Positions 19,195 through 37,232 of a stretch of 59,882 nt of DNA are shown piece after piece. Source of the stretch: Blastocatellia bacterium (lineage in GTDB: Bacteria; Acidobacteriota; Blastocatellia; RBC074). The position numbers and the translations under genes are program-made. How positions within the stretch are numbered: the first letter of the stretch is position 1; the number at the start of each line of letters is the position of its first letter. The notes beneath the pieces are model-generated. The model was not told the origin of the DNA. It did not search any database and saw nothing but the letters and a program-made list of their open reading frames with translations. The stretch is from the NCBI GenBank assembly GCA_046154695.1, contig JBJXFI010000018.1, positions 1 to 59,882 of the forward strand, given 5' to 3'.

Positions 19195-20340
<1,146 letters not shown>

Positions 20341-20390
20341 TAGGTTGCTTCTCCCGTAACCGGCGTCCTCTCGCCGCGCCGCTCTCCCGC

Positions 20391-22643
20391 CTATCTCAAT
20401 AACGCATCGACCTTGGCCAGCAGCTCCTCGAAAACGATCCCGCGCTTGCTCAGGAAATCGTCGGCCCCCGACTGCAGCGCCTCGATCTTGTCCTCGAGCC
20501 CCTGGCGGCCGCCGAGCAGGATGACGGGCGTTTCGCGCTTCTCCTTGCGCAGGTCGCGGCAGATATCGAATCCAGATTGATGTTCGAGCAGCGCATCGAG
20601 GATCAGCAGTTGATAGTGGGCCGCGCGGGAGCGGGTTCGCTCCATCGCCTCCCTGCCGTCCTGCACCCGGTCGACCAGATAGTTCTCGACCTCCAGGCCC
20701 CGTTTCAGAATGGCCGCCAGCTCGTCATTGGCCACGGCGACCAGGATCCGTTCGATGGCCGGCAGCGAGGTCGTCGGCAGGCTGCCGGTGCGCCCCTTGT
20801 GCGCCATCGAGAGCCTCGCCGTGCCGGACGTCGGGGGGAGCATCGAGGTCATCGCCGCCGGCACATCCGCCAGCGTGGACGAGGCCAGCATCGCCTCGGC
20901 GCGCCGCAGATCGATCATCGCGCCGAGTTTGGCGAACTCGCGGGAGGCCTCCTCCAGATGCGCGCGCGCCGACTCGGGGCGGCTCTGGCGCAGGCGCAGC
21001 GACCCGATCGCTCCGTGGCAGACCGCCGTCCGATACGGGTCGCTGATGGTTTGAAAGATCGAAAGGCTTTGCCCAAAGGCGCGATTGGCCTCGCTCAATT
21101 CGCCGGCCTGGGTGTGGATCGTTCCCCGCGTGAAGAGCGCCCGCGCCATCAGGTTCAATGCCGGATCGAGAGAGGTCGCCGCCTCGGCGCCTTCCAGTTT
21201 CCCGCGGGCATTCGCCAGATCGGCGTTCTCCACGTGCGCAAGCGCAAGTTCGAACCCGAGCAGCACCTGCTCCTCGATCGCGCCCCGGTCGCGCGCGGCC
21301 GTCAACCCCTTCTCATACGCGTCGATCGCGGTCGATAGCTGGTGGCGCGCCTGGAGGATTCGCCCGAGGATTCGCTGCGTGCGCGCATAGATCACCGCGC
21401 CATGCCCCGCCACTGCCTGCTCGATCGATTGCCACGCGGCCGGCAGATCCCCCTGCAGCAGCTTCAATTCCGCCAGATCCGTCATCGCCACGGCTTCGGC
21501 CTTCGACAGCTTCTGTTCGCGGGCCAGCTTCAACCGATCCGCCAGCAGCCGCTCGGTCGCGGTCCAGGTTCCCAGGCGGGTCAGCACGCGGGAGAGGCTG
21601 CTGTAGCCCTTGAGCAGCAGCCGCACATTGCCGGTCTTCTCGATCATCTGGATGGCCGATTGATAAACGGGGATGGCCTCCTTCAGCCTGCCTTCGGTAT
21701 AAAGCACGAGCGCCTGCTGCAACTCGACCCGGCCCTTGAGCAGGTCGTCGCTCGTCTCCTCGGCCAACCGGGCGGCGCGGCCCCAATTGTAGCGGGCGCC
21801 CTCGAAGTCTCCTTCTTTCCACTCCACTTTTCCGAGCAGGTAATGGGACTCGGCGCGCAGGCGAACGTTGCCCGCCCGGCGCGCGGCGAGCATCGCCCGG
21901 TGCAGGTGGTCCCGCGCCGCCAGCAGGTCGCCGGCGCTGATCATCGCGCGGCCGAGCGCGGCGTGCGCGCCCGCGATTCCCGTGTCGTCGCTCTTGCCCT
22001 CGCCGGATTGCGAGAAGAAGCCCAGGCTGCGCTGCAGCGCGTCGATCGCGATCTCCATCTCCTTCCGCTCCAGATAGACGCGTCCGATGCAAAGCAGCAC
22101 GCCCGCGCGAAACGAGGGCGGAAGCGCGATCAACTGGGTCGTGTCGTTGTATTTCGAGAGCACATCCAGCGCCCGGTCAACCGCGCCCTTGTTCAAATGG
22201 GCCTCGGCCAGCACCCGGCGAAGATTGGCCTCTTCGCGGACATCCGCGTGCTGGATCTTCAATTGGCCGGTCAGGGAATGGATCAGGCCGTCGGCGCCGG
22301 CCGCCTCGTGGCGCGGCAGCAGCGGACCCGTCGCGCCTTCGGTCTCGATCAGTTGGAAGGTGATCTCCGGGCCGGCGCTGCCGAACCGGATGAGGTCGCC
22401 ATCGTTGAGCATCTGTTCCGAAATCCGGGCGCTGTTGATATAGCTTCCATTCGTCGATCCCAGATCGCGCAACATGAACCCGTTCCCCACACGGATCAGT
22501 TCGGCATGTGAACGCGACACCACCGTTTGGGGAATGCAGAGCGAATTTTCGGCGCCGCGTCCAATGGTGAATCGGGGGGATTCGAGCGGAAACGTTTGAG
22601 CTTCACCATTGAGGGTCAGATGAACTTCTCCACGCACACTCAT
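20391..22643 (-). CDS. FHA - TPR - receiver (REC) three-domain regulatory protein
   Basis: N-terminal FHA 'FTIGRGAENSLCIP..VSRSHAEL..LRDLGSTNGSYIN', central TPR-like helical repeats, C-terminal CheY-like domain 'ILVAVANDE..LLILDALL..PVILLGG..GADDFLSK'. Confidence 0.8.
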   Translation of the reverse strand: MSVRGEVHLTLNGEAQTFPLESPRFTIGRGAENSLCIPQTVVSRSHAELIRVGNGFMLRDLGSTNGSYINSARISEQMLNDGDLIRFGSAGPEITFQLIETEGATGPLLPRHEAAGADGLIHSLTGQLKIQHADVREEANLRRVLAEAHLNKGAVDRALDVLSKYNDTTQLIALPPSFRAGVLLCIGRVYLERKEMEIAIDALQRSLGFFSQSGEGKSDDTGIAGAHAALGRAMISAGDLLAARDHLHRAMLAARRAGNVRLRAESHYLLGKVEWKEGDFEGARYNWGRAARLAEETSDDLLKGRVELQQALVLYTEGRLKEAIPVYQSAIQMIEKTGNVRLLLKGYSSLSRVLTRLGTWTATERLLADRLKLAREQKLSKAEAVAMTDLAELKLLQGDLPAAWQSIEQAVAGHGAVIYARTQRILGRILQARHQLSTAIDAYEKGLTAARDRGAIEEQVLLGFELALAHVENADLANARGKLEGAEAATSLDPALNLMARALFTRGTIHTQAGELSEANRAFGQSLSIFQTISDPYRTAVCHGAIGSLRLRQSRPESARAHLEEASREFAKLGAMIDLRRAEAMLASSTLADVPAAMTSMLPPTSGTARLSMAHKGRTGSLPTTSLPAIERILVAVANDELAAILKRGLEVENYLVDRVQDGREAMERTRSRAAHYQLLILDALLEHQSGFDICRDLRKEKRETPVILLGGRQGLEDKIEALQSGADDFLSKRGIVFEELLAKVDALLR

Positions 22644-22780: not shown

Positions 22781-22855
22781 CGCCCCGCTGTTAATGAGTT
22801 CATCTCCACACCCCCGGAACCGACTCCGAATTAACGAACAGGACACGCAAGACGG

Positions 22856-23683
22856 ATGCCATCTTCACTTACAATAGGCGTGCTCGCGGAAGCGCGATAC
22901 CTGGTTCAGAACCAACCGACGGGTCTCTTTTCCGAGTTGCAATCGCAGGGACACGAGATCGTCCTGATCGATCCGCAGAGATCGTTTTACACGATGGGCT
23001 CGGACGCGTGGCTTGCGGGACTGGACGGAATCGTCGCGCGCGGCCGAAGCTGGGGGCTGCTCGGATTGCTCGGCTGGGCCGAGCGGGCCGGTATAAGGAC
23101 GATCAACCGCCGCGACGCGATCGCCGCCGTCCACAACAAGTCGCAGATGTCGATGGCGCTTGCGTCGAGCGGCCTGCCGATTCCCCAGACCTATTTCGGC
23201 AGCATCGCGCAGCTTGCGGCCAAGATTTCCCGCGATTGTTATCCAATCATTCTCAAACCGATCTTCGGCGATAATTCGCTCGGGCTGCTCGTCATCCCGA
23301 CGCCGGAGGAGATGGCCGCGACCGAGTGGACGGAGCCCGTGGCGCTGGCGCAGCGCTATTTCCGGACCGATGGATACGACCTAAAACTCTATGGCATCGG
23401 CGATGAGGTCTGGGTCGTGCGCAAGGTCTCGCCCTTCAACGCCGCCGAGGGGATGGACCGGTCGCGGGAGGGGCTCGTCGAGGCGACGCCGGAGCTGCGG
23501 GACCTCGGGCGCCGCTGCGGGCGGCTCTTCGGGCTGGACCTGTACGGCGTCGATTGCATCGAGACGGCCGACGGCGTCCTGATCATCGAGATCAACGACT
23601 ATCCCAACTACACCAACGTGCCGGCGGCAAACGCGCTGCTGGCGGAGTATGTCGTTGGCCGCTGCCGGAGCGATGCCTCGTGA
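22856..23683 (+). CDS. ATP-grasp enzyme, divergent paralogue 1 (RimK/ITPK-like)
   Basis: 'YPIILKPIFGDNSLGLLVI', 'DLKLYGIGDEVWVVRK', 'LYGVDCIETADGVLIIEINDYPNYTNVP'. Its N-terminal half is more RimK-like than in paralogues 2-4. Confidence 0.75.
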   Translation: MPSSLTIGVLAEARYLVQNQPTGLFSELQSQGHEIVLIDPQRSFYTMGSDAWLAGLDGIVARGRSWGLLGLLGWAERAGIRTINRRDAIAAVHNKSQMSMALASSGLPIPQTYFGSIAQLAAKISRDCYPIILKPIFGDNSLGLLVIPTPEEMAATEWTEPVALAQRYFRTDGYDLKLYGIGDEVWVVRKVSPFNAAEGMDRSREGLVEATPELRDLGRRCGRLFGLDLYGVDCIETADGVLIIEINDYPNYTNVPAANALLAEYVVGRCRSDAS

Positions 23684-23687
23684 GCCT

Positions 23688-24491
23688 ATGAAGATCGGGA
23701 TCATCACAAAACGGGAGAAGGCCACAAAATCGGGGTCGGTCATGCAGGAGGCGGCCGGAATTCTGCAATCGCGGGGCTGCGAGTGCGGGATGATCTATCC
23801 CGAGGACGGACGCATCGAGATCGCGGCGGTCCGAGCGGACTGCGATCTCTATCTGCTCAAATCCGGCACGGAGGCCGCGCTCTCGCTGGCGGGCGTGCTC
23901 GATTCGATGGGGGCGCGCATACTCAATCCGTATCCCACCGTCATCGCCATGCGCGACAAGGTCGTCTCGACGCGCAAACTGCTCTCGGCGGAGGTTCCGC
24001 TGCCCGAGACCTGGTTCGCCGCGAAGCCGGGCGACCTGGCCGATCTGCTTGCGGATGGTCCGATCGTCGTCAAGCCTTTCTGGGCGGCCTCGCAGGGGCG
24101 CGGTGTGCGAGTGATCCGCGAGGCGCGGGAACTCGCGTCCCTCGATCCGGTCGAAGATCTGCTCTTCGCGCAGCGATACAATCCGCCCGACGGCCGCGAC
24201 CACAAGCTCTATGTCATCGGGGAGCAGGTCTTCGGCGTCCGCCGCGTCTGGCCGCCAAAAACGCTCGAGGACAAGCTCGGCGAACCCTTCGAGGTTCCCG
24301 GCGAGATGCGGGAGATCGCGCTCCGCTGCGGCCGCGCCTTCGGCGTCGGCCTTTACGGCGTGGATCTGATCACCAGCGGCGGACGCTCCTACATCGTCGA
24401 TCTCAACACCTTTCCCGGATTCAAGGGCGTCCCCGATGCCGCATCGTTGTTGGCCGATTTCATTTTGAAAACATCCATTGAAAACATCTGA
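23688..24491 (+). CDS. ATP-grasp enzyme, ITPK1-like (inositol polyphosphate kinase family) paralogue 2
   Basis: 'CDLYLLKSGTE', 'ILNPYPTVIAMRDKVVS', 'HKLYVIGEQVFGVRR', 'LYGVDLITSGGRSYIVDLNTFPGFKGVP'. ATG lies 4 nt after the preceding stop. Confidence 0.7.
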   Translation: MKIGIITKREKATKSGSVMQEAAGILQSRGCECGMIYPEDGRIEIAAVRADCDLYLLKSGTEAALSLAGVLDSMGARILNPYPTVIAMRDKVVSTRKLLSAEVPLPETWFAAKPGDLADLLADGPIVVKPFWAASQGRGVRVIREARELASLDPVEDLLFAQRYNPPDGRDHKLYVIGEQVFGVRRVWPPKTLEDKLGEPFEVPGEMREIALRCGRAFGVGLYGVDLITSGGRSYIVDLNTFPGFKGVPDAASLLADFILKTSIENI

Positions 24492-24500
24492 GGTGAATGA

Positions 24501-25343
24501 ATGAAACTTCATTTTATGGTTGTCCGCCGGGTGCCGCCGGTTCCCAGCCCGGTGCTGGTCGAGTGCTACGAGATTTTGCGCGGACGCGGATACACGGTCA
24601 CCGAGGACATCGCCGAGGAGATTCTGCAGCGCCCCGATCTGCTGACGATCGACGCCGACCTCTATCTGCTCAAGTCTCACACGGAGCTCTCGCTCGCGAT
24701 GGCCGGCGTGCTGCACACGCAGGGCGCGAACATGCTCAACCCCTATGAGTCCTGTTCGCTGATTCAGAGCAAGATCATCACATCGAAGCTGCTGCGGGAG
24801 GCCGGGATTCCCGCGCCCGATTCGTGGGTGACCAATGATCTGAGCATGGCCAAATCGCTGCTCGAAAAACATCCGCTGATCATCAAGCCGCACATGGGGC
24901 ATCGCGGCGCGGGCGTCAGTCTTTGCCGGACGCCGGAGGAGATCGACCGGATCCCCGCGCCCGTCACCCCGATGATCATCCAGGAAGCGATTCCCGGGCC
25001 GGGCGAGGACCTCAAGATCTATTGCGTCGGCGATCAGGTGCAGGGCGTGCGGAAGCAGTTCTCCGAGTCCAGTTTCTCGGTCGCCGGCCGCCACGGCGAG
25101 ATCACCGAGGAGGTGCGCCGCATCTCGCAGCGCGTCGGCGAAGTGTGCGGCCTCGGTTTGTACGGCCTCGACATCATCGAAAGCGATCGCGGGCCCTATG
25201 TCGTCGATGTCAACTATTTTCCCGGCTACAAGGGCGTGCCGAACGCCGCCGGGCTGATCGCCGACTATATCGATCAGTACGCCAAAGGCCGCGTGACGCT
25301 GACGCCGCCGGTTCCCGGGGCCGCGCGCGTGGCCGCGAGCTGA
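24501..25343 (+). CDS. ATP-grasp enzyme, ITPK1-like paralogue 3
   Basis: '[11 protein letters not shown]', '[18 protein letters not shown]', '[15 protein letters not shown]', '[28 protein letters not shown]'. Confidence 0.7.
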
Positions 25344-25351
25344 ATGCCACG

Positions 25352-26572
25352 ATGAGCCAATCCCAGGAAGAAGCGGTGCGGGAGTCGAAGGCTTCCAGAA
25401 ACGCGGTGCTGGTTCTGCTGCTGGAAGGCTTTCTCTCCCGGCTGAGCTTCTCGGTTCTCGGGTTCGCGCTTCCGCTCTTTGCATACCGCCGGTTGGGGTT
25501 GAGTCTGACCCAGACGGGGTTTCTCTTCTCGGTCAACCTGATGTCGGAGCAGCTCTTCAAGCCGCTGATGGGCTGGGTGGCGGATCGCGCGGGGGTGAAG
25601 CGGATCTTCACGGCGTCGATTGCGCTGCGCAGCCTGGTGGCATTGCTGCTGGTCTTCGCCGGCGCGCCCTGGCAGGTGTACGCGATCCGGTTTTTGCATG
25701 GATTCGCGGAATCGCTGCGCGATCCCTCGGTTGCGGTGCTGATCGCGGTGAATGCGCGGGAGACGCGGCTCGCCTCGACCTTCGGCTGGTACACGACGGC
25801 GAAGCAGTCGGCCGGCTCGATCGGCGCCGCCCTGTGCGGGCTGTTGCTGGCCGCGACCGGGGACCGCTATGACGTGGCCTTTGCCGCGGGCTTTGTTCTT
25901 TCGCTTGCCCCCCTGTTCGCGGTCGCGCGATACCTGGAGGAACCGGCCCGCCATTCGGGCCCCGCCCCGGGGCCGCCCGCTTCCGCGGCGCCTTCAGGAG
26001 AGGCGGGGAAAAAAGAGAAGAGCGGGCTTTTGCCGATCGTCATCTTCGGGTTTTTGAGCGCGTGCACCGCGCGGATGATCACCCAGTTCTTTCCCATCCT
26101 GGCGATTGAATATGGCGGATTGAGCACGGCGCAGACGAGCCTGATCTATGCCGTCTCGCTCGTCATTCTGATCGGGGCCGGACCCCTCTTCGGCTGGCTG
26201 TCGGACAATGTCAGCCGGAAAATGGTTCTGATGGTTCGGGGCATCGCCAGTACGATCTCGTCGGCGTGCTTCTATTTCTTTCCCACGCTGCCCGGATTGG
26301 CCGCGGGGAACGTTCTCGATTCCCTGGGCAAGGCCGCCTTCCGGCCCGCCTGGGGCGCGATGATGGCCCGCGTCGCCCGGCTGAACCCGCGGCGACGGGC
26401 GCGAACGATGAGTTATTTGAGTCTCGGCGAGGGGCTCGGAGAGACCCTCGGGCCGATTCTGGGCGGGTTTCTGTGGAGCACCTGGGGCATCGGCGCCATG
26501 CTCGGCGCCCGCGTCGCCCTGGCGCTGCTCGGAGAGGTGTACGCCGTGATTGTGGCGCGAACCGATCAATAG
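25352..26572 (+). CDS. MFS transporter (12-TM type)
   Basis: ATG at 25352, 8 nt after paralogue 3. '[52 protein letters not shown]'. Paralogous to the C-terminal domain of the 29255-32410 protein. Confidence 0.85.
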
Positions 26573-26573
26573 C

Positions 26574-26731
26574 GGCACAAGCTGTCCAGCTTGTGCCGGG
26601 TGTAAGGGTGCGCGTGAAGAGTAGGGCGGGTCGCGCGCCGGAAGTCGTCTCGTTCGAGGCCTGGTTTTTTTCTGAGAGTGTCTGGCGGAGGCGGCACAAG
26701 CTGGACGGCTTGTGCCACTTTTTCTGAGGAG
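26574..26731 (+). repeat. Copy B (complete) of the ~150-nt structured intergenic element
   Basis: GGCACAAGCTGTCCAGCTTGTGCC (26574-26597), GC stem GGTGCGCG..CGCGCGCC, CTCGTTCGAG mini-hairpin, second hairpin GGCACAAGCTGGACGGCTTGTGCC, then ACTTTTTCTGAGGAG 6 nt before the ATG at 26738. Confidence 0.85.
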
Positions 26732-26737
26732 AATGAA

Positions 26738-27583
26738 ATGCGAATCTGTTTTTTGATGGAGCCGCCGCGAAGCAACACGTCGGTGACCTATGAAGTGTTG
26801 AGCGGATTGCAGGCGAGCGGGGCGGAGGTGGAGGTGGTCACCGAGCGAAGCGGGCTGATCGACCTGCAGAATTTCAGGTTCGATTACGATGTGTATCTTT
26901 TCAAGTCGCATTCGCCGCTGGCCGAGAGCCTGGCGGCCGCGGCCCATTTTCGCGACGCGCGGCTGCTGAACGAGTATCCGGCGACGATGAAGGTTCGGGA
27001 CAAGGTGCTGACCTGCACGATGCTGCTCCAGGCGGGCATTCCCACGCCGCGCACCTTCGTCACCGATGCGATCGAGACGCTGCGCCCGGCCGTGCGCGAG
27101 ATGCCGATCGTCGTCAAGCCCTATCGCGGCCGCCGCGGCATGGGAATCGAGGTCTGCATGGATGAGGCCCAGTTCGACGCGCTGGTCCGGCGCCGCGAGG
27201 GAGCCGCCGTGGCCGATCTCGACGAGGGGGGCGAGGACGGCACGGCCCTCGGCGATCGCCTGATCTTCGCGCAGGAGTACGAAGAACACGAACCCTACGA
27301 TTACAAGGCCTATGCCATCGGCGATTACGTCCACGCCATCAAACGCATCTTCCCGGCGAAAACCAAGGAAGAGAAACTCGGCGTTCCGGTCGGCGAGGAC
27401 CCGGAACTCGAAGATCTGGTCCGGCGCTGTGGAAAACTTTTCGGGCTGCAGCTCTATGGCGTCGATCTCGTGAAAACGCCAAAAGGCTATTCGGTGATCG
27501 AGGTCAACTGCTTTCCGGGATACAAGGGCGTTCCCGAGGGCGGCGCCCGCATTTCAAACTTTATCCTCGAACATGTCCGGTGA
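26738..27583 (+). CDS. ATP-grasp enzyme, ITPK1-like paralogue 4
   Basis: '[11 protein letters not shown]', '[17 protein letters not shown]', '[18 protein letters not shown]', '[15 protein letters not shown]', '[28 protein letters not shown]'. Confidence 0.7.
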
Positions 27584-27747
27584 CAGGCAACAGATGGTTC
27601 GGCGAGCTTCATCGAAGGAGCCGTTTTATTGACACCCCTTGCTCGGATTGCCCTGGATCAGACGATTAACACTCAAGGGGCCTGATGAGAAAGCTGTATA
27701 AATTGGCTGTTGAGCAGGCTGGAGATTATTTTGGAGGAACATAGACT

Positions 27748-29106
27748 ATGGCTTCGGGATTGAAATCTTGGACACCCCTGGCGATTCTGCTTATCGCGGG
27801 GGTTATTTCATTGGCGCTTATTTCGGAATCGGCTTCGGCCCATTTCACCTTCCTGGACGCGTTTTCGTCCGAAAAGGAGAAGAAAGACAAGAAAGAGAAG
27901 AAGTCGAAGAGCAAAGTCGACGACGATGATGACGACGATGACGATCAGGACAAGGAGCAAAAGAAGCGGGAGAAAGAGGAGAAGAAGCGGGCCGAGAAGG
28001 CCGCGAAGTCGAAGATGAAGTCCGAGCCGGAGGCGGCCTCGGGGGTGGCGATCGCGTCAACTGAAAGGGCGGGCGAGAAGGCGGAAAAGACGGCAGCGAA
28101 GAAGGCCGAAGCCCGGGCATTGGCGGGTCCGTCGGCGGCCGCGATTGCGGAGCCGTTGGAAGCGGTCTTCGCGGTGGTGGAGACCGATCCCGTTCCGCAC
28201 GGCGGGGACGCCGCCGATGATCCCGCCATCTGGATTCATCCGAAAGATCCGTCCCAGAGCACCATCATCGGCAGCGACAAGCAGGGCGGCCTCGCCGTCT
28301 ATGACCTGAGCGGCAAACAGATTCAGTATCTCTCCGACGGATTGATGGACAACGTGGACCTCCGGGACGGCTTCACGCTCGGGGGCGAAAAGGTCGCAAT
28401 CGTCACGGCGAGCAATCGGAAAGACAACTCCATCGCGATCTACAAGGTCAACGCCGCGACGCGAAAGCTCGAACCCGCCGCGGCCCGCGTGGTCAAGCAC
28501 GGCATGACGGTTTACGGCATGTGTATGTATCGGAGCGGGAAATCCGGGAAATTCTTTTATTTCGGAACCAGCAAATCGGGCGATGTCGAACAGTACGAGC
28601 TCTTCGACAATGGCGGCAAGGTGGATGTGAGGAAGGTCCGCAGCTTCAAGCTCGGATCGGTCGTCGAGGGCTGCGTCGCAGATGATGAACTGGGCCATTT
28701 CTACATCAGCGAGGAGGCGGTGGGAATCTGGAAATACGGCGCGGATCCGGATGCGGGCGCGGAGCGCGTCCAGGTCGACAAGGTCGGCGGCCATTTGAAG
28801 GCCGATGTCGAAGGACTGGCGATCGCGTACGGTCCCGACGGGAAGGGATATCTGATGGCCTCCAGCCAGGGGGACTATTCGTTTGTCGTCTACCGGCGGG
28901 AAGGCAATAACGAGTTTGTCCGGAAGTTCCGGATCGGCGACGGCGCGGGGGTCGATGGCGCGGAAGAGACCGACGGAATCGATGTGACGACGGCCAGCCT
29001 GGGGCCCGCGTTCCCGAATGGCCTCTTCGTCGTGCAGGACGGGTTCAACGACAAGGGCAACCAGAACTTCAAACTCGTTCCCCTGCAGGCGATCGTCAGG
29101 CCGTAA
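27748..29106 (+). CDS. Secreted beta-propeller phytase (3-phytase, BPP family) with K/E/D-rich N-terminal extension
   Basis: Signal/TM '[18 protein letters not shown]'. '[83 protein letters not shown]' fits the Bacillus PhyC-type phytase pattern. GGAGGAAC SD. Confidence 0.8.
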
Positions 29107-29122: not shown

Positions 29123-29219
29123 GGGAGGAGACACGGAATAGACGGAAAGAGCGGAATCAACGGGCCCGAAATCGCGGGCTGCCGGTTGTTCCGTTAATTC
29201 CGTCTATTCGTTTTCTCCC
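29123..29219. repeat. ACGGAA-type imperfect palindromic element, copy I
   Basis: GGGAGGAGACACGGAATAGACGGAAAGAGCGGAATCAACGG .. CCGGTTGTTCCGTTAATTCCGTCTATTCGTTTTCTCCC. The arms are reverse complements with a few mismatches. Confidence 0.8.
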
Positions 29220-29254
29220 ATCTCATTGAGAGACAATTTCGGAGGACGTCACGC

Positions 29255-32200
29255 GTGAAACGATGCCCGGTTTGCAATCGTGAAATGCCCGATACCAAGA
29301 AGTTCTGTGATCGGGATGGGGCGGCGCTCGTTGCGATCGAGCCGGCGCTGCTGCCGCGGCTGATCATCCGGGCGCCGGAGGGCGGGGAGCGGGACATGGC
29401 GATCATCTCCGCGATCTCGACCATCGGGAAGACGCCGGACAACGGCATCGTCGTCACGGATGGCGCGATCAGCCGGAAGCATGCGCAGATCGAGCAGCGG
29501 GATGGACAGTATCTCCTCAAGGATCTGGGAAGCCTGAACGGGACGTTTTTGAATGGGCAGCGGCTCGATTCGCGGGAGCAGCCGCTGAAGGACGGCGATG
29601 AGATCGTGATCGGGCGGACGCGCATGCTGTTTCGGCTGCTGCCCGATATGTCGCAATTCGCGACGGTCGAAAACGACCCGCAGCGGGGACAGGAGCCTCC
29701 GCCTCGATTGACGAGCGTCATTGAGACGCCGCGGCCGCCGGTTCCCGCGCCGGCGCCTCCGGCGAAGCCCGCGGCGCCTCCTCTACAGCCGCCTCCGCAA
29801 TTGGCGCCGAAAGCGCCGCCTCCGCCTCCGCAATTGACGCCGAAACCCGTGCCTCCGGCGCCGCCGCGGATCACGAATCCGGCGATTCCGGAGGGGAAAC
29901 GTCCGGAATATAAGGTGGCGCTGACCGGCGAACTGGTCGTGCCCTCGTCCGCGGCGACCCTGACGGGAGACTCCGGGCCGATCATTCTCGACGGCCGGTA
30001 TGAACTCGAAAAACGAATCCTGCAGGATGCGACCGGGACGCTCTATCGCGCGCGACGAGTGTTGCTGAATGACCGCGTCTCGATTCGGGTGCTGCGGCCG
30101 GAGCTGGTGGGCGAGGAGACCGCGGTCGAGCGGTTTCGCCGCCAGGCGCAGGTCGCCGCGCTGATCCGGCATCCCAATTCCGTGCAGGTCTACGACTTCG
30201 GCTATTCGCCCGAGGGGGCGGCCTATATCGTCGAGGAACTGATCTCGGGCAGGACGCTGCGGGATCTGATTCGCAAAGAGCGGGGGCTGAGCCTTGCGCA
30301 CGTCGTCGGCCTGTTCAATCAACTCTGCGGCGCGGTGCACGCAGCCCATCTGAGCGGGATCATGCTCCGCGATCTGCGGCCGGAGATGATCTATGTCGAG
30401 ACCGACCCGAGCGGCGGCGAACTGATCAAGGTCGGGGGATATGCGCTGGCCAAGATGGAGGGAGCGGGCGCGAGGGAAAAGTCGCTGACCGGTCCCATCG
30501 GCGTGTATGGCCTGCCGCAATACGCCTCTCCCGAACAATTGTTCAATCGGCCGCTGGACGCGCGATCCGATATCTATTCGCTGGGCGTGATCCTGTATGA
30601 GCTGCTCACCGGGACTGTCCCGTTCGACTCCGAGAACGAGAACGAGCTGCTGACGATGCACATGTATTCGTCCGTTCCCGATCTCACCGAGATTGGGCGG
30701 AGCGACCTGGATGAAGGCGTTGCGGCCGTCGTCAACCGGGCGCTGGATCCGTCCCCCAACAGGCGCCAGGCCTCCGCGCTGCAGCTCGCGGAAGAGCTGC
30801 AGGCCGTCTCCGGCGTGGGCGGCAACCCGCTCAGTCAGATGGTCTCGAAAGTCACGGGGCTGCTCTCTTTCCCGCATCTGGTGATCCCGCCGAAGATCCA
30901 GCCTTCGGCGGGGGAACAGGCGCTGCCGTCGGTTCTGCCCGAGGTCCGGGAACAGGGGAAGGGCGCATTCAATCCGGTGGTGATGGCGCTGATGGCCGAG
31001 GCCTTTCTGTCGCGCCTCTCAAGCGGAATGATCAAAACGGCCGTTCCGCTCTATGCGCTGCTGGTCTTCGGAATGAAGATCACTTCGGTCATGGCGCTGG
31101 TGCTGGTTCAGAACATCGTTCCGCTGCTGCTGCGGCCGGTCTTCGGATCGCTGGCCGACAAGCACGGCAAGAAACGGGTCTTTATGGTCTCGCTCACCAT
31201 CCGGACGCTGGTGGGCGTGCTCTATGCGGTCGCTTCGCTGCCGATGCTCTATTTCGTCAGTCTCGTTCGCGGAATCGCGGACTCGGCCAAGGGGCCGTCG
31301 GCCTCCGCAATGATCGCCGACAACACCGATGAGAAGAGCATCGCGCAGGCCTATTCCTGGTACACGACGACCAAATCGACCTCCGGCGGCATCGGCGAGG
31401 CGCTTGCGGCCTTCGTTCTGACGGTGCTGATCGCGGTCTATGCGGGCACGCAGACGGTCAACGTCAATTTCGCGGTCACCGACAAGGTCACGCGCTCCGG
31501 CGCGGGCGCGGAGGAGATCGTCAAGGATCCCGCGCGGATTCGCGTGGGACAGCCGCTCCCCGGCGCCGAGAGCGATCCGGCCGCGCCCAGGGTGGTGCGC
31601 GTCGAGCAGCGCGCGATGCGCCTCGGCGATGTCCCGATCGAGGACCTGCCGAAGGTCGTCGATTCGCCCCCGCTGCGAAAGGCCCTGGTCGCCATCTTTC
31701 TCATCGCCACCGTCTTTTCGCTCGGCTCGCTGATTCTCGTCGCGGTCTTCATCAAGGAAAAGAAGAAAGAGAAGAAAGAGAAGAAGGAGAAGGGCGCGCT
31801 CACCGGGCGGCTCGATGCGCCGCTGGAACAACCGAATATCTGGCTCTTCGCCCTGCTCGGGACCGCGCTGACCGCGCCGGCCTATATGGTCACCGGGGAG
31901 TTCTTCACGATTCTCGCCGTCAAACTCGAGGTCACGCCCTCCTCTCTCGGATGGATCAAGATTCTCGCCGAGACGGCCGTGCCCCTGCTCTTCGGGCCCT
32001 TCTTCGGATGGCTCGCCGATCGCATCGGCGCCGGCCGGGTGATCGCGCTGCGATCCATCGCCAATATGCTCACCTCGGCCCTCTTCTGGATCGTTCCCTG
32101 GTTTGCCGGAACCGCGCTGCTGGGCCTGATGATGGGCGTCGCCCGCGCGATCGACGAAGTCGGCAAGGCCGCTTTCAAGCCGACATGGGGCGCCATCGCC

Positions 32201-32410
32201 GCCAAGGTCTCCAGTTTCAATCTTTCGGCCCGCAGCCGGACCATGGGCATTCTCGAAGGCGGCGTCGACGCCTCCGACCTCGTCTTCCCCGTCGTCGCCG
32301 GCATGCTTTTACAGTATCTGTCGCTCGGGCCGCTGATGCTCGTCCGCGCGATGCTCGCCGTCGCGGCCGAGATTTACGGCTTCCTGCTTATGCGCAAATA
32401 TAAAATCTGA
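29255..32410 (+). CDS. Fusion protein: zinc ribbon - FHA - degenerate Ser/Thr protein kinase-like domain - MFS transporter
   Basis: '[19 protein letters not shown]'. FHA '[30 protein letters not shown]'. Pro-rich linker. Hanks-type fold '[72 protein letters not shown]'. From about aa 570 an MFS domain paralogous to 25352-26572. Confidence 0.85.
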
Positions 32411-33237: not shown

Positions 33238-33485
33238 GGGTGTATTGAAGTTCTTTTGCCTCAACCCGCAAAGCGGGTGGCAGCATATAGCCTGGGGTGA
33301 AGGCGAAGCCAGAACCCCAGGGTTGGTAAAAACCGTTGTCAAGCCCGTGAAACGGGCGACAGCGAACGCTCTGCCGCCCGTTTCACGGGCTTGCGAGCGT
33401 TTTCGATGCGGTCCTGGGGCTTACGCCCCAGGCTATATGCTGTCGCCTGCTTCGCAGGCTGCAAAAATCGAATTTCAAAACACCC
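33238..33485. repeat. ~250-bp compound imperfect palindrome made of nested small hairpins (MITE-like or structured RNA)
   Basis: Symmetry centre near 33365. AAGCCCGTGAAACGGGCG (33341-33358) pairs with 33375-33392 (18/18). CAGCATATAGCCTGGGG (33281-33297) pairs with 33426-33442 (17/17). Outer GGGTGT..TTGAA pairs with TTCAA..ACACCC. Confidence 0.8.
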
Positions 33486-33486: not shown

Positions 33487-33840
33487 CTACGGGATGCTCC
33501 ACAAGATATACGCGGCCAGCACGGCGCCGGCGATCGCGCTGCCGTAACAGATCACGGCGATCAGCTCGTTCAGATGCTTGATCTGCAGCCCATCGTACAG
33601 CGTAAAACGAAACCGGTGCGCGCCGTGAAAAAGCGGCACCGAACACAACACGAACAACACGAGCCGCATCAACGGCTGCCGCGCCAGCCCCAGCATGCTC
33701 TCATAGCTCGGCGCCTCGACCCAGCCGAGCGGAATCGCCAGGCCGAACAGGAAGAGCAGCGCTGGAAATACCAGCGCCGCGATCATTCCGCCGGAACTGA
33801 AGAGCGACCACAGAAACGGCTCATTCGATCGTTTGCCCAT
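33487..33840 (-). CDS. frdD: Fumarate reductase membrane anchor subunit D
   Basis: 'KRSNEPFLWSLFSSGGMIAALVFPALLFLFGLAIPLG..HGAHRFRFTLYDL' parallels E. coli FrdD. 117 aa counted from 'MGKRSNEP'. Confidence 0.8.
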   Translation of the reverse strand: MGKRSNEPFLWSLFSSGGMIAALVFPALLFLFGLAIPLGWVEAPSYESMLGLARQPLMRLVLFVLCSVPLFHGAHRFRFTLYDGLQIKHLNELIAVICYGSAIAGAVLAAYILWSIP

Positions 33841-33841
33841 C

Positions 33842-34276
33842 TCAATTCCCTCTCGTAAAAAGCCACCAGATGACCGCCGAGACCGCCAGCCACAGCGCAT
33901 AGTTCGGCGCGGAGATCATCCAGTCCGGCAGCCGCTTTCCGCCCACCCGCACCGGCATCGCCTTCGGCGCCAGGTTGAACCACGTGATCGAGTGATAGAG
34001 CACAAAGAGAAACGCGATGAGGCTCATCACGAGAAACGACGGCGTCCTCCACCACGCCAGAAATGCGGCGTAGCTTTCCGGCCCCCGGGACAGGCTCCAG
34101 ATCATCCAGAGCAGCAGCACGCCGACATAGCCGACCGCGATGCTGCTCAGTTCCCGCAGGATGAATTTGAAGGACCGCCATTGCTCCATCCACCACCAGG
34201 TGGAGACCCGTTTGCGATACCACTTGGGACGATAGAGGTTATAGGCCGGCGATTCTTTCATCTCGGAATCCTCCAT
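33842..34276 (-). CDS. frdC: Fumarate reductase membrane anchor subunit C
   Basis: 'YRPKWYRKRVSTWWW..FILRELSSIAVGY..GPESYAAFLAWW..LYHSITWFNLAPKA' parallels E. coli FrdC. Confidence 0.8.
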   Translation of the reverse strand: MEDSEMKESPAYNLYRPKWYRKRVSTWWWMEQWRSFKFILRELSSIAVGYVGVLLLWMIWSLSRGPESYAAFLAWWRTPSFLVMSLIAFLFVLYHSITWFNLAPKAMPVRVGGKRLPDWMISAPNYALWLAVSAVIWWLFTRGN

Positions 34277-34324
34277 GCTCCAATTGCCATTTCAGAGCTG
34301 AATGCGGCCATTCCGGCGCGCTTC

Positions 34325-35068
34325 TCATTTCTTGCCCCACGGCATGAGCACCGATTTGTACCAATCGGTCACCGCCTTGATCTTGTACTGCTGGATGGCC
34401 CCCGCAGGATCGACGTTCTTCGGGCAGGCTTTCGTGCATTCTCCGTTGAAGGTGCAGCCCCAGATGCCGTCGTGCTGGGAAAGGATGTCGAGGCGCTCCT
34501 CGGCCCCCTGATCGCGGGAGTCCTCGTTATAGCGCTGCGCCAGCGCGATGGCCGCCGGCCCGATGAAATGCGGATCCAGCCCGACGACCGGGCACGCGGC
34601 GTAACAGCACAGGCAGTTGATGCACATGCTGAACTGTTTGTAGTTGTCCATCTCCCGGGGCGTTTGCAGGTATTCGCCTTCCGAGATCGGCTTCTCTTCC
34701 TGGCGGACGATCCACGGGTTGACGCTCTTCAGCTTGTTGATGAAATCGGTGATCTCCACGACCAGGTCGCGAACGATCGGAAAGTAGCGCAGCGGCTCGA
34801 TGCGAATCGGCCCCGGCGCATAGTGTGTCAGGAAGGTGGCGCAGGTGAGCTTCGGCTCCCCGTTGACCATCATCCCGCAGCTCCCGCAGACGCCCATCCG
34901 GCAGCTCCACCGAAACGAAAGCGATCCGTCCAGCCTGTCCTTGACGTAATTGAGCGCGTCGAGCACCACCCAGTCTTTATTGAGGGGCACCTCGAACCGC
35001 TCGAACGCGGGCTCCGCTTCCTGCTCGGGCCGGTAACGCGCGACCTCGAGAGTGATCGTTTCAGCCAT
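34325..35068 (-). CDS. frdB: Fumarate reductase iron-sulfur subunit
   Basis: Cys clusters '[15 protein letters not shown]' (2Fe-2S), '[12 protein letters not shown]' and '[12 protein letters not shown]'. Confidence 0.9.
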
Positions 35069-35074
35069 CTATCC

Positions 35075-36820: not shown

Positions 36821-37124
36821 GTTGTGCTTGACTCCTCACGCCGCAAGCCGGGCGGCTCGCGGGGAACCAGTTACTTCGGCGGAAGAAGCGGCGAATGCGA
36901 CGCCCGGCTTCTTCACCAATTTTCGTGAACTGCGAAAGAGCCTCTGCTGGCAGGCTGGCATACCGCCGCGCAGCCCGGAGATTCACCCGGTAGGGATGAG
37001 TACGTTCTTATTTGATTGTTCTGAAATAGAAAACTTCGCTGGACGATGGAAAACGCACCGTAGTCTACGCATCTCCCCCGTAAGCGTCAACGGAACGGCG
37101 TCGGCAATCGCACAAGGGAGTGAT

Positions 37125-37163
37125 TAAAAGCATGAAACCTTGCGCCCCGGCGGGGGGGCGCAA
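37125..37163 (-). terminator. Candidate intrinsic terminator after the DinB-family gene
   Basis: 9-bp GC stem TTGCGCCCC/GGGGCGCAA (37140-37163). On the minus strand it is followed by GGTTTCATGCTTTTAATC. Confidence 0.4.
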
Positions 37164-37232
37164 GTCCGAGCTACATCGGTACATGGTTTTTTGGCGCGGA
37201 TCGACGAGCGTCCCACTTGTTTCCATTCCGGT

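What the first reader, a model, noticed from the sequence alone, without database searches (positions are those of the whole stretch)
29255..32410. Fusion of zinc ribbon, FHA, catalytically degenerate kinase and MFS transporter (possible transceptor)
This is a single 1051-aa ORF. The kinase-like domain (about aa 248-515, nt 29996-30799) keeps the Hanks fold landmarks: RFRR.AQ..A.L.HP, YASPEQ and [19 protein letters not shown]. Nearly every catalytic position is substituted. The Gly-loop GxGxxG reads QDATGT. VAIK Lys is Arg (VSIRVL, R278). The alpha-C Glu is Gln (RFRRQAQ, Q297). HRDLKPxN reads [11 protein letters not shown] reads GGY (394-396). It is therefore predicted to be a pseudokinase. 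From about aa 570 (nt 30962) the protein is a full MFS transporter, paralogous to the stand-alone MFS at 25352-26572. Shared blocks include [32 protein letters not shown] and [26 protein letters not shown]. In the FHA domain the usually invariant Gly-Arg is Gly-Lys (TIGKTPDN). Transporters covalently fused to FHA plus a kinase-like module are very unusual. The architecture suggests transport regulated by, or reporting to, phospho-signalling.
Basis: seen in the sequence. Interest (0 to 1): 0.8.

Follow-up and report, generated by a model that had tools for sequence, protein, structure and literature searches.

The report
FHA–pseudokinase–MFS transporter fusion, conserved
This is a real 1051-residue membrane protein, conserved in one group of soil Acidobacteria, that joins a phospho-threonine reader and a catalytically dead kinase domain to a transporter; it looks like a transporter controlled by protein phosphorylation, an arrangement not yet described for this transporter class.

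Summary
The ORF 29255-32410 (+) is real. Its domains are a Cys3-Asp/His zinc ribbon, FHA, a disordered Pro-rich linker, a Hanks-type pseudokinase and a 12-TM MFS permease.

It is not an assembly artefact. More than 120 full-length, collinear homologues (53-86% identity) exist. About 58 species-level genomes carry it, all Acidobacteriota/Blastocatellia MAGs.

The kinase substitutions are fixed across the family: beta3 Lys to Arg, alphaC Glu to Gln, DFG to GGY, catalytic-loop Asn lost, Gly-loop lost.

The MFS half is the most conserved part. It keeps motif A in both halves and has a family-specific ~75-residue beta-rich insert in the periplasmic TM5-TM6 loop.

The gene ends a conserved cluster: FHA-TPR-receiver regulator, four RimK-like ATP-grasp enzymes, a paralogous MFS and a secreted beta-propeller phytase-like enzyme. 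A related cassette (four ATP-grasps, a mannitol-dehydrogenase-family enzyme, an MFS) occurs in Actinomycetota and Myxococcota, sometimes with its own pseudokinase-MFS or ATP-grasp-MFS fusions.

Best reading: a working transporter for the cassette's unknown metabolite, switched by phospho-Thr/FHA interactions on a non-catalytic kinase scaffold. The closest precedents are M. tuberculosis Rv1747 and MviN/FhaA. This is a new variant of a known regulatory theme. The transceptor idea is neither excluded nor favoured.

The parts
29255..32410 (+). Whole gene: zinc ribbon-FHA-linker-pseudokinase-MFS, 1051 aa, GTG start, with GGAGGA Shine-Dalgarno at 29241-29246
29255..29326 (+). N-terminal zinc-ribbon-like motif (aa 1-24): C4-x2-C7 ... 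C18-x2-D21
   Evidence: Pfam gives only E 0.091. C4, C7 and C18 are invariant in the 83 homologues with this N-terminus, and position 21 is D (62) or H (22). About 35 of 118 homologues lack the motif.
29345..29644 (+). FHA domain (aa 31-130), with GK in place of GR
   Evidence: Pfam 8e-20. Closest solved relatives are GarA/OdhI (about 1e-14) and the FHA domains of Rv1747. G58, S73, R74, H76 and N95-G96 are conserved. AF2 pLDDT is above 90.
29645..29908 (+). Disordered Pro-rich linker (aa 131-218)
   Evidence: AF2 pLDDT is below 50 for 135-207. Length is variable in homologues, and some carry a second FHA domain here.
29909..29935 (+). Conserved linker motif Y-K/R-V-x-x-T-G-E-L (aa 219-227). 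T224 has Leu at +3 and is a candidate FHA ligand.
   Evidence: Present in the family consensus. It forms an island of pLDDT 75-89 within the disordered linker. Phosphorylation is inferred, not shown.
29990..30814 (+). Hanks-type pseudokinase domain (aa 246-520): R278, Q297, L371-R372-D373, M378, G394-G395-Y396. The activation-loop T412 aligns with PknB T171.
   Evidence: Foldseek TM-score normalised to target is 0.86-0.88 against PknB/PknA.
30815..30970 (+). Juxtamembrane linker (aa 521-572) with the conserved K-x-T534-G-L-L motif, a candidate phospho-acceptor
   Evidence: T534 is Thr in 105/118 homologues and +3 is Leu.
30971..31444 (+). MFS N-half, TM1-TM5 (aa 573-730), including motif A ([12 protein letters not shown])
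31445..31663 (+). Family-specific beta-rich insert in the periplasmic TM5-TM6 loop (aa 731-803)
   Evidence: Absent from the paralogous MFS and from P0273. Conserved in the family. AF2 pLDDT is about 90 in the full model and 76 when modelled alone. No PDB fold match, best E 0.98.
31664..31837 (+). TM6 (aa 804-832) and the Lys-rich cytoplasmic central loop (aa 833-861)
31838..32407 (+). MFS C-half, TM7-TM12 (aa 862-1051), with a second motif A ([12 protein letters not shown]) and the signature [14 protein letters not shown]
25352..26572 (+). Stand-alone paralogous MFS of the same cassette
22856..25343 (+). Three tandem RimK/LysX-like ATP-grasp genes (22856-23683, 23649-24491, 24501-25343)
   Evidence: Synteny.
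26678..27583 (+). Fourth RimK-like ATP-grasp gene
27748..29106 (+). Secreted beta-propeller phytase-like phosphatase, with a signal peptide and a charged low-complexity region
   Evidence: Pfam PF02333 at 7.6e-106. NF045638-like. Sequence. Synteny.
20391..22643 (-). Divergently transcribed FHA-TPR-receiver regulator, conserved next to the cluster
19195..20340 (-). Mannitol-dehydrogenase-family oxidoreductase. It is paired with the FHA-TPR-REC gene here and lies inside the ATP-grasp/MFS cassette in other phyla.
29123..29219 (+). Long stable hairpin in the phytase-fusion intergenic spacer, a possible terminator or attenuator
   Evidence: Fold z-score -5.6. An analogous hairpin with a different sequence occurs in the orthologous locus L003, z -6.1.

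Best explanation
The gene encodes a working MFS permease whose activity or assembly is controlled by Ser/Thr-phosphorylation signalling, through a built-in non-catalytic module.

**Shown.**
- It is one conserved polypeptide. From the cytoplasmic side it reads: zinc ribbon, FHA, disordered linker, PknB-like kinase fold, then 12 TM helices.
- The kinase fold lacks the Gly-loop, the beta3 Lys, the alphaC Glu, the metal-binding Asn and the DFG Asp.
- A clade-specific beta-rich insert faces the periplasm.
- The gene belongs to a conserved cluster with four RimK-like ATP-grasp enzymes, a paralogous MFS, a secreted phytase-like phosphatase and an FHA-TPR-receiver regulator.

**Inferred.**
1. The pseudokinase cannot do canonical Mg-ATP phosphotransfer. 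It acts as a scaffold and phospho-acceptor.
2. It keeps the PknB back-to-back dimer residues (R248, L271, D314, matching PknB R10, L33, D76). It also keeps the HRD Arg and a Thr at the PknB T171 position. So it can pair with itself or with an active PknB-type kinase encoded elsewhere, and be phosphorylated in trans.
3. Candidate sites are T412, T534 (juxtamembrane) and T224 (linker). Each has a hydrophobic residue at +3, the FHA preference.
4. The cis FHA domain binds the phospho-Thr, within one chain or between chains. The FHA of the neighbouring TPR-receiver protein may do so as well. This switches the transporter between states, as phosphorylation activates the FHA-bearing ABC transporter Rv1747 and as phospho-MviN recruits FhaA.
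5. The cargo is the unknown, probably anionic, product or substrate of the ATP-grasp cassette.
For: **Real fusion and conservation.** (more than 120 collinear homologues; about 58 species genomes).

**Pseudokinase.**
- One search gives the PknB register.
- One search gives family frequencies: R 114/121, Q 113/121, G-G-Y 119/109/112, and no Asn at the catalytic-loop position.
- One search shows that distant members still lack the DFG Asp.
- Fold confirmed.
- The pocket residues are fixed rather than drifting, so the site is under selection.

**FHA competence.** (GarA-like; only Arg to Lys differs).

**Candidate phospho-sites.**

**Dimer-interface residues at least 90% conserved.**

**Transporter competence.**
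- The MFS half has roughly 32% invariant columns, against about 20% for the kinase and about 8% for FHA, among 27 diverse members.
- Motif A is present in both halves, and signature motifs are shared with the cassette MFS across phyla.
- The fusion is the only cassette MFS in loci L043, L045, L049 and L050.
- In a second lineage the cassette's own MFS carries a degenerate kinase domain, sometimes with an ATP-grasp as well.

**Cluster synteny.**

**Precedents.** Rv1747 (PMC3138270) and MviN/FhaA (PMC12599244).
Against: - No active Hanks kinase or PP2C phosphatase is encoded in the window or in the conserved neighbourhood. The writer and eraser are hypothetical.
- No phosphorylation data exist.
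- T412 is Ala in 24/118 members, and T224 is missing in some.
- The FHA is itself degenerate in at least one member, L053. FHA reading therefore cannot be essential everywhere.
- The FHA Arg to Lys change could weaken phospho-Thr binding.
- AF2 pTM is only 0.59, and no inter-domain confidence values were available. Domain docking is therefore unknown.
- The cargo is unknown.
Confidence: 0.6

Rival explanations
1. Ligand-gated transporter or transceptor. The conserved but non-catalytic kinase pocket (R278, Q297, D373, K/R375) binds a small anionic ligand, either a nucleotide without metal or the cassette metabolite. Alternatively or additionally, the periplasmic TM5-TM6 insert senses an external cue. 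The MFS conformational cycle is then coupled to the FHA/pseudokinase module, which reports to the FHA-TPR-receiver regulator.
For: - The pocket residues are fixed across the family rather than decayed at random.
- The clade gained a cytoplasmic module and a conserved periplasmic insert of unknown fold.
- An FHA-TPR-REC regulator is a conserved neighbour.
- Relatives of this MFS subfamily are repeatedly fused to sensor-type domains such as cNMP-binding plus rhodanese, pentapeptide and PD40.
Against: - No ligand is known.
- The MFS keeps every hallmark of a cycling transporter, and it is the sole cassette MFS in some genomes.
- Nothing links the protein physically to the regulator.
- This rival is compatible with the main explanation rather than exclusive of it.
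Confidence: 0.2
2. Atypical but active kinase. The domain retains the HRD Asp and Arg and the APE/SPEQ substrate-binding region. It phosphorylates itself or the transporter by a non-canonical mechanism, metal-independent as in CASK or with a relocated Lys as in WNK. The cis FHA reads the product.
For: - D373 is kept in 96/121 members and R372 in 121/121. K375 is kept in 106/121.
- The activation loop and C-lobe are full length, unlike the MviN-type pseudokinase.
- One divergent member keeps the beta3 Lys (L045).
Against: - Five elements are lost together and family-wide: the Gly-rich loop, beta3 Lys, alphaC Glu, catalytic-loop Asn and DFG Asp.
- 22/121 members also lose the HRD Asp (Gly).
- To my knowledge, no active kinase lacks all of these.
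Confidence: 0.1
3. Artefact. Two adjacent genes, an FHA-kinase and an MFS, were merged by a sequencing or assembly frameshift or by a missed stop codon.
For: None found. One distant orthologue (L059) is fragmented into several ORFs, but that locus comes from a long-read MAG.
Against: - The frame is uninterrupted.
- More than 120 independent full-length homologues come from different assemblies and technologies, including 5.7 Mb and 9.5 Mb contigs.
- The alignment is collinear through the junction, with conserved junction residues G553, E554, P558 and V560.
Confidence: 0.01

Closest known systems
Rv1747 of Mycobacterium tuberculosis (ABC exporter with two N-terminal FHA domains, regulated by PknF)
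   Same: - Cytoplasmic FHA domain(s) are fused N-terminally to a transporter through a disordered linker.
- In Rv1747 the linker carries phospho-acceptor Thr residues, and phosphorylation positively regulates transport (PMC3138270).
- The FHA here matches the Rv1747 FHA domains in sequence.
- Some family members also carry two FHA domains.
   Different: - The transporter class differs: an ABC ATPase there, an MFS secondary carrier here.
- Rv1747 has no kinase-like domain.
- Its cognate active kinase, PknF, is in the same operon. Here no active kinase is nearby.
MviN/MurJ (Rv3910) of M. tuberculosis with its intracellular pseudokinase domain and the FHA protein FhaA
   Same: A polytopic transporter is covalently linked to a cytoplasmic pseudokinase. 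The pseudokinase is phosphorylated by PknB, and the phospho-Thr recruits an FHA domain that regulates the transporter's pathway. The pseudokinase forms a PknB-like back-to-back dimer (PMC12599244).
   Different: - MviN is a MOP-superfamily flippase with the pseudokinase at the C-terminus, and the FHA is a separate protein.
- Its ActPs3-type pseudokinase has lost all motifs and has an activation-loop deletion.
- Here the pseudokinase is N-terminal to an MFS, the FHA is in cis, and the activation loop and HRD Arg-Asp are retained.
GarA/OdhI (stand-alone FHA regulators with an N-terminal phospho-Thr switch)
   Same: They are the closest solved FHA relatives (about 1e-14). They provide the model for intramolecular binding of an FHA domain to a phospho-Thr on a flexible segment of the same chain.
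   Different: They are small soluble proteins that regulate metabolic enzymes. They have no kinase-like or membrane domain.
Described bacterial pseudokinase families (ActPs1-3, DLHK, GLW, CP1, DYD)
   Same: Degenerate Hanks-type domains conserved as families. ActPs2 also has a beta3 Lys to Arg change, and DLHK also keeps the HRD Asp.
   Different: None of these families is reported with an MFS, with FHA plus MFS, or from Acidobacteriota. The papers contain no occurrence of 'MFS', 'transporter' or 'Acidobacteri'.
Pkinase-like-MFS and Pkinase-like-ATP-grasp-MFS fusions in other, probably actinobacterial, metagenome lineages (P0130, P0273, P0276, P0277)
   Same: - They share the MFS subfamily and signature motifs.
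- They share the same ATP-grasp/mannitol-dehydrogenase cassette.
- The degenerate kinase domain, lacking the DFG Asp, sits N-terminal to the MFS.
- The alignment with the window protein is collinear.
   Different: - No FHA, no zinc ribbon and no periplasmic insert.
- The beta3 Lys and catalytic-loop Asn are retained.
- Only 25-29% identity in the kinase part, so a common or an independent origin is unresolved.

Membership tests
Catalytically active Hanks-type Ser/Thr protein kinase | Bilobal protein-kinase fold | tested here: met
   Pfam PF00069 at 92.7 bits against a cut-off of 31.7. PknB E 3e-37. Foldseek TM-score normalised to target is 0.86-0.88.
Catalytically active Hanks-type Ser/Thr protein kinase | Gly-rich loop GxGxxG | tested here: not met
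   QDATGT. Only the fifth Gly is conserved in the family.
Catalytically active Hanks-type Ser/Thr protein kinase | Beta3 (VAIK) Lys paired with the alphaC Glu | tested here: not met
   R278 (Arg in 114/121) and Q297 (Gln in 113/121).
Catalytically active Hanks-type Ser/Thr protein kinase | HRD catalytic Asp | tested here: met
   L371-R372-D373. Asp in 96/121 and Gly in 22/121.
Catalytically active Hanks-type Ser/Thr protein kinase | Metal-binding Asn of the catalytic loop and Asp of DFG | tested here: not met
   M378 (Thr, Ser or Met in the family) and G394-G395-Y396.
Catalytically active Hanks-type Ser/Thr protein kinase | Phosphotransfer activity | not testable with these tools
   Needs a biochemical assay.
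Bacterial pseudokinase (class) | Kinase fold lacking at least one of VAIK-Lys, HRD-Asp or DFG-Asp, with the change conserved in a family | tested here: met
   Two of the three are lost and fixed across 121 sequences.
Published bacterial pseudokinase families (ActPs1-3, DLHK, GLW, CP1, DYD) | Family-specific motif patterns and domain partners | tested here: inconclusive
   The motif combination R / LRD / GGY with FHA plus MFS partners matches none of the descriptions. The family models were not available to score.
FHA domain (phospho-Thr reader) | FHA fold with the conserved G-R, S-x-x-H and N-G loop residues | tested here: met
   Pfam 71.5 bits against a cut-off of 20.7. G58, S73, H76 and N95-G96 are present. 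The Arg is replaced by Lys, with K in 96/121 and R in 18/121.
FHA domain (phospho-Thr reader) | Binding of phospho-Thr peptides | not testable with these tools
   Candidate ligands T224, T412 and T534 are inferred from conservation and a +3 Leu/Ile.
Major facilitator superfamily transporter | Twelve TM helices in two six-helix halves, with motif A (G-x-x-x-D-R/K-x-G-R-R/K) in the TM2-3 loop | tested here: met
   Pfam 95.1 bits against a cut-off of 33.4. Twelve long helices in the AF2 model. [12 protein letters not shown] and [12 protein letters not shown] are conserved.
Major facilitator superfamily transporter | Substrate translocation | not testable with these tools
   The cargo is unknown. 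The closest solved relative is only NorA, at E 2e-4.
Rv1747-type FHA-regulated transporter | FHA fused to the transporter, phospho-acceptor Thr in a disordered linker, and a cognate kinase in the operon | tested here: inconclusive
   The FHA fusion and disordered linker are present. The Thr sites are only candidates. No kinase lies in the window. The transporter class differs (MFS, not ABC).
MviN-type transporter-pseudokinase | MOP-family flippase with a C-terminal ActPs3 pseudokinase that has an activation-loop deletion | tested here: not met
   The transporter is an MFS, the pseudokinase is N-terminal, and the activation loop is full length.
Zinc ribbon | Two Cys-x2-Cys knuckles | tested here: inconclusive
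   Pfam E 0.091, 13 bits against a cut-off of 25. The pattern is C-x2-C ... C-x2-D/H, with the three Cys invariant.
Transceptor (transporter homologue that signals) | Signalling output that depends on substrate binding | not testable with these tools
   Only architecture is available.

The most novel reading that the evidence does not exclude
The protein is a ligand-sensing, phospho-switchable transceptor. Its catalytically dead but strictly conserved kinase pocket binds the cassette's metabolite or a nucleotide, and its periplasmic TM5-TM6 insert senses the outside. Together they gate an MFS carrier and relay the state, through FHA/phospho-Thr contacts, to the neighbouring FHA-TPR-receiver regulator. 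That would be a bacterial pseudokinase acting as an allosteric metabolite sensor built into a secondary transporter.
Probability: 0.2. Interest if true: 0.8.

Novelty: new variant of a known kind. Interest (0 to 1): 0.55.

Why it matters
Bacterial pseudokinases are barely studied experimentally. The one well-understood transporter-linked case, MviN/FhaA, and the one FHA-fused transporter, Rv1747, are both mycobacterial.

That makes it a compact system for asking how phospho-Thr signalling gates a secondary transporter.

It also flags an uncharacterised, cross-phylum cassette of four ATP-grasp enzymes, an oxidoreductase and an MFS. In abundant soil Acidobacteria this cassette is coupled to a secreted phytase-like enzyme, so it may bear on soil phosphorus or metabolite cycling.

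The fixed, non-canonical pocket residues (Arg, Gln, Asp) suggest a retained ligand-binding function that can be tested directly.

Tried and rejected
1. **Assembly or frameshift artefact.** Rejected on homologue collinearity.
2. **Anti-phage defence kinase.** PADLOC gives strong hits (PD-T4-6, mad6, PglW), but they cover only the generic kinase fold at 244-520. Nothing else in the neighbourhood matches defence models. Rejected.
3. **Neighbouring ATP-grasps as inositol-phosphate kinases.** They match RimK/LysX far better and over their full length. Not excluded, but not favoured.
4. **Fold identification of the periplasmic insert.** It was modelled alone (pLDDT 76) and searched against the PDB. 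No match was better than E 0.98.
5. **Closest solved MFS for substrate inference.** Only NorA at E 2e-4, which is uninformative.
6. **Literature.** Searches for FHA+pseudokinase+MFS, kinase/MFS fusions, the ATP-grasp/phytase cluster, bacterial ITPK homologues and the ATP-grasp/mannitol-dehydrogenase/MFS cassette found nothing relevant.
7. **Rfam scan.** No riboswitch lies upstream of the gene.
8. **Divergent orthologue L059.** It was to be used for motif evolution, but the gene is fragmented there.
9. **Lost script machine.** It was lost. Per-site rate analysis, phylogeny and co-occurrence statistics with kinases and phosphatases could not be done.


Full report
**1.

ORF listing and translation show one uninterrupted frame, 29255-32410 (+), of 1051 codons with a GTG start. 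A GGAGGA Shine-Dalgarno sequence lies 8 nt upstream.

Pfam detects three domains, all well above the curated cut-offs:
- FHA at 56-120 (8e-20).
- Pkinase at 251-504 (3e-26).
- MFS_1, best stretch 583-724 plus further stretches (5e-27).

NCBIfam's best kinase match is the PknB/Stk1 model (3.7e-61), far below its equivalog cut-off.

- GFGGMS corresponds to QDATGT.
- K40 corresponds to R278.
- E59 corresponds to Q297.
- HRDVKPAN corresponds to LRDLRPEM.
- DFG corresponds to GGY.

One correction is needed. The catalytic Asp of HRD is retained (D373), as is the HRD Arg.

The zinc ribbon is not significant in Pfam (E 0.091). However, its three Cys are invariant in all 83 homologues that have this N-terminus. 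The fourth ligand position is Asp in 62 and His in 22, a pattern expected of a real metal site.

The FHA Gly-Lys is confirmed. The remaining FHA signature (S73-R74-x-H76, N95-G96) is intact.

The MFS half is 35-36% identical to the stand-alone MFS at 25352-26572 over both six-helix halves.

**2. It is a conserved protein family, not an artefact**

A search of 5.8 billion protein clusters returned more than 120 full-length proteins. They are 53-86% identical and carry the same FHA+Pkinase+MFS Pfam architecture. Sources name them 'MFS transporter', 'serine/threonine-protein kinase' or 'bifunctional serine/threonine protein kinase/MFS transporter', and assign them to Blastocatellia/Acidobacteriota.

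A scan of one genome per GTDB species found the gene in about 58 species, all MAGs. These include 5.7 Mb and 9.5 Mb contigs and a 'Chloracidobacterium sp. UBA7656' bin. A dozen bins labelled Heliomicrobium, Heliobacteriaceae or Clostridia sit among the Blastocatellia hits at 62-66% identity. They share the whole cluster and are almost certainly mislabelled.

Alignments run collinear through the kinase-MFS junction, with conserved junction residues.

**3. The kinase domain is a family-wide pseudokinase with a fixed, non-canonical pocket**

Frequencies in 121 sequences:

| Position | State in family |
|---|---|
| Beta3 Lys | Arg in 114 |
| AlphaC Glu | Gln in 113 |
| H of HRD | Leu, Val or Ile |
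| HRD Arg | invariant |
| HRD Asp | Asp in 96, Gly in 22 |
| Catalytic-loop Asn | Thr, Ser or Met |
| DFG | Gly 119, Gly 109, Tyr 112 |

Distant members (about 50-55% identity) still lack the DFG Asp. One of them keeps the beta3 Lys.

Both metal ligands, the Gly-rich loop and the Lys-Glu pair are lost together, so canonical Mg-ATP phosphotransfer is very unlikely. The replacement residues are conserved rather than drifting, so the pocket is under selection. That fits a structural role or a ligand-binding role.

The AF2 model (mean pLDDT 82.7) gives a confident kinase fold with a disordered activation loop at 401-415. Foldseek places it on PknB/PknA with TM-score 0.86-0.88.

Three residues match PknB R10, L33 and D76: R248, L271 and D314. 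All are at least 90% conserved. In PknB these form the back-to-back N-lobe dimer interface. That role rests on my own knowledge. The PDB entries listed are L33D and D76A mutants of PknB.

T412 aligns with the PknB activation-loop phospho-site T171. It is Thr in 92/118, and most other members have a Thr one or two positions away.

**4. Topology and the transporter half**

The AF2 secondary structure shows twelve long helices from residue 574 to 1049. Motif A is present after TM2 ([12 protein letters not shown]) and after TM8 ([12 protein letters not shown]). A Lys-rich segment ([13 protein letters not shown]) follows TM6.

With the standard N-in MFS topology and the positive-inside rule, the zinc ribbon, FHA and pseudokinase are cytoplasmic.

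The TM5-TM6 loop is then periplasmic. In this clade it carries a conserved ~75-residue insert (aa 731-803) that the paralogous MFS and the other pseudokinase-MFS lineage lack. AF2 predicts three long strands plus a short helix, with pLDDT about 90 in context and 76 when modelled alone. No PDB fold matches; the best E is 0.98.

Among 27 diverse members, invariant columns make up roughly 32% of the MFS half, 20% of the pseudokinase and 8% of the FHA (counted). The transporter is the most constrained part.

**5. Genomic context**

The gene is the last member of a conserved cluster. In nearly every orthologous locus with enough flanking DNA the order is as follows:
- FHA-TPR-receiver regulator, divergently transcribed (here 20391-22643, minus strand).
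- ATP-grasp 1, 2 and 3.
- Stand-alone MFS.
- ATP-grasp 4.
- Beta-propeller phytase-like gene.
- The fusion.

A sigma-70-like promoter (TTGACC, 16 nt, TATAAT) precedes ATP-grasp 1.

The phytase-like protein has a signal peptide followed by a highly charged low-complexity stretch.

In a subset of loci (L043, L045, L049, L050), ATP-grasp 4 is followed directly by the fusion. No stand-alone MFS or phytase-like gene lies within ±10 kb, so the fusion is the only cassette MFS there. L037 and L048 also lack both genes in the DNA recovered, but show only ATP-grasp 4 upstream.

The four ATP-grasp proteins match the RimK family, LysX and MptN models over their full length, at 1e-18 to 1e-25 against the RimK-family model (weaker for LysX and MptN). 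They match the Ins(1,3,4)P3 5/6-kinase model only over the shared C-terminal nucleotide-binding segment. They are more probably carboxylate-amine ligases than inositol-phosphate kinases, but this is not settled.

**6. A wider cassette and independent 'Rosetta-stone' fusions**

The MFS half was scored against 1.84 billion representatives. It found only 603 relatives at E below 1e-3 and 52 at E below 1e-30. The fused clade collapses to three representatives plus fragments. There is then a jump to stand-alone relatives at 33-41% identity.

Several of those relatives carry other fused domains:
- A degenerate kinase.
- cNMP-binding plus rhodanese.
- Pentapeptide repeats.
- PD40.
- An ABC ATPase.

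A search with the kinase-MFS relative P0130 revealed three things:
- A second small lineage of about 715-760 residues with a kinase-like domain lacking the DFG Asp (TSF/TQF).
- Triple fusions of kinase-like domain, RimK ATP-grasp and MFS.
- ATP-grasp-MFS fusions.

Their loci, and those of stand-alone relatives in an Ornithinimicrobium chromosome and a Myxococcales MAG, share a core cassette. It has four RimK-like ATP-grasps in the Ornithinimicrobium and Myxococcales loci (at least two in the short P0273 contig, whose first gene is unannotated), one mannitol-dehydrogenase-family enzyme and this MFS.

In the window the mannitol-dehydrogenase homologue sits next to the FHA-TPR-REC gene (19195-20340, minus strand). 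The same pairing occurs in L002.

The window protein and P0273 align collinearly across kinase and MFS.

Domain fusion therefore ties the MFS, the ATP-grasps and a dead kinase together functionally across phyla. The fused MFS most likely carries the same class of cargo as the cassette MFS.

**7. Mechanism**

*Shown:* the architecture, the topology, the loss of catalytic residues, the conservation and the context.

*Inferred:* the pseudokinase is a docking and phospho-acceptor module, possibly dimerising through the PknB-type interface with itself or with an active PknB-like kinase encoded elsewhere. No second kinase domain exists in the window.

There are three conserved Thr candidates, each followed by Leu or Ile at +3. 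That is the usual FHA preference, which rests on my own knowledge.
- T224, in the Y-K/R-V-x-x-T-G-E-L island of the otherwise disordered linker. AF2 gives it pLDDT 75-89.
- T412, in the activation loop.
- T534, in the juxtamembrane K-x-T-G-L-L motif (Thr in 105/118).

The FHA domain is closest to GarA/OdhI, which use an intramolecular phospho-Thr switch. It also matches the FHA domains of Rv1747.

Two published cases give the working analogy:
- Rv1747 is an ABC transporter with N-terminal FHA domains. Its linker threonines are phosphorylated by PknF, and this positively regulates transport (PMC3138270).
- MviN's pseudokinase is phosphorylated by PknB and recruits FhaA (PMC12599244).

The present protein combines both ideas in one chain on an MFS. 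The conserved FHA-TPR-receiver neighbour could compete for or share the same phospho-sites. That would link the transporter to a two-component pathway. This last step is speculative.

**8. Weak points**

- No writer or eraser is identified, and there are no phosphorylation data.
- The FHA Arg is Lys in most members.
- The FHA is degenerate in one member, L053 (GS, and no S-x-N-G).
- T412 and T224 are not universal.
- AF2 pTM is 0.59 and no inter-domain confidence values were available, so docking is unknown.
- The cargo is unknown.
- That prevented phylogeny, rate analysis and co-occurrence statistics.

**9. Comparison and novelty**

The protein meets the definition of a pseudokinase, an FHA domain and an MFS transporter. 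It fails the tests for an active Hanks kinase, missing five of the seven sequence and fold features tested.

It works like Rv1747 and MviN/FhaA but belongs to neither family, because the transporter superfamily and the domain order differ.

Two recent surveys of bacterial pseudokinases list seven families. None has an MFS partner and none comes from Acidobacteriota.

Literature searches for the architecture and for the cassette found nothing. Databases already hold and auto-name the proteins.

I rate it a new variant of a known regulatory kind. It is uncharacterised, conserved, and of moderate-to-good interest.

**10. Verdict**

The 'transceptor' and inositol-phosphate ideas are unsupported but not excluded.

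| Item | Value |
|---|---|
| Real conserved pseudokinase-FHA-MFS fusion | about 0.95 |
| Phospho-Thr/FHA-regulated working transporter | about 0.6 |
| Ligand-sensing or transceptor variant | about 0.2 |
| Atypical active kinase | about 0.1 |
| Artefact | about 0.01 |
| Interest | 0.55 |

Noticed in passing
window 19195-29106 (and L001, L002, L066, L067, L068): A cross-phylum cassette of four RimK/LysX-like ATP-grasp genes, a mannitol-dehydrogenase-family gene and a distinctive MFS subfamily. It occurs in Acidobacteriota, Actinomycetota (Ornithinimicrobium) and Myxococcota. The Blastocatellia version adds a secreted phytase-like enzyme. I found no published function.
   Followed up: partly
window 20391-22643 (-): A 750-aa FHA + TPR + response-regulator receiver protein, transcribed divergently from the ATP-grasp operon. 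It is conserved next to the cluster in most orthologous loci, and in L002 it is paired with the mannitol-dehydrogenase gene.
   Followed up: partly
window 29123-29219 (+); L003 about 3362-3430: A very stable long hairpin lies in the spacer between the phytase-like gene and the fusion gene (z -5.6). The orthologous locus L003 has an equally stable hairpin of unrelated sequence at the same place (z -6.1). It may be a terminator, an attenuator or a palindromic element.
   Followed up: partly
window 33413-33460 (+): Rfam Acido-Lenti-1 sRNA motif (40.8 bits against a gathering score of 37). It lies between the 3-keto-disaccharide-hydrolase-like gene and a 1031-aa ORF.
   Followed up: no
window 33833-36928 (+) and 37140-37868 (+): A 1031-aa ORF and a 242-aa ORF with no Pfam or NCBIfam match. 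Neither is conserved next to the fusion gene in any of the 60-odd related loci.
   Followed up: no
window 27748-29106 (+), aa 40-130: The phytase-like protein has an extreme charged low-complexity segment after its signal peptide: [14 protein letters not shown], then nine consecutive Asp, then a Lys/Glu-rich stretch. This precedes the beta-propeller.
   Followed up: no
window 23649-23683: ATP-grasp genes 1 and 2 overlap by 35 nt. Genes 2 and 3, and gene 3 and the MFS, are separated by only 8-9 nt. This suggests translational coupling within the cassette.
   Followed up: no
L059 10001-12938: The most divergent orthologue is broken into five or more short ORFs. It comes from a long-read MAG, so this is either indel errors or a genuine pseudogene.
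   Followed up: partly
L005-L008, L011, L013, L019, L027, L037, L045, L050, L051, L056: MAGs deposited as 'uncultured Heliomicrobium / Heliobacteriaceae / Clostridia' carry the whole Blastocatellia-type cluster, with 53-77% identity to the window protein (best aligned segment). Their taxonomic labels are probably wrong.
   Followed up: no
L045 9992-13543; P0087; P0124: Some family members (about 1110-1180 aa) carry a second FHA domain inserted in the linker. This gives an FHA-FHA-pseudokinase-MFS arrangement even closer to Rv1747.
   Followed up: partly
P0169, P0137, P0127, P0145 (relatives of the cassette MFS): The same MFS subfamily is repeatedly fused at its C-terminus to other cytoplasmic modules: cNMP-binding plus rhodanese, pentapeptide repeats, PD40 and an ABC ATPase.
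   Followed up: no
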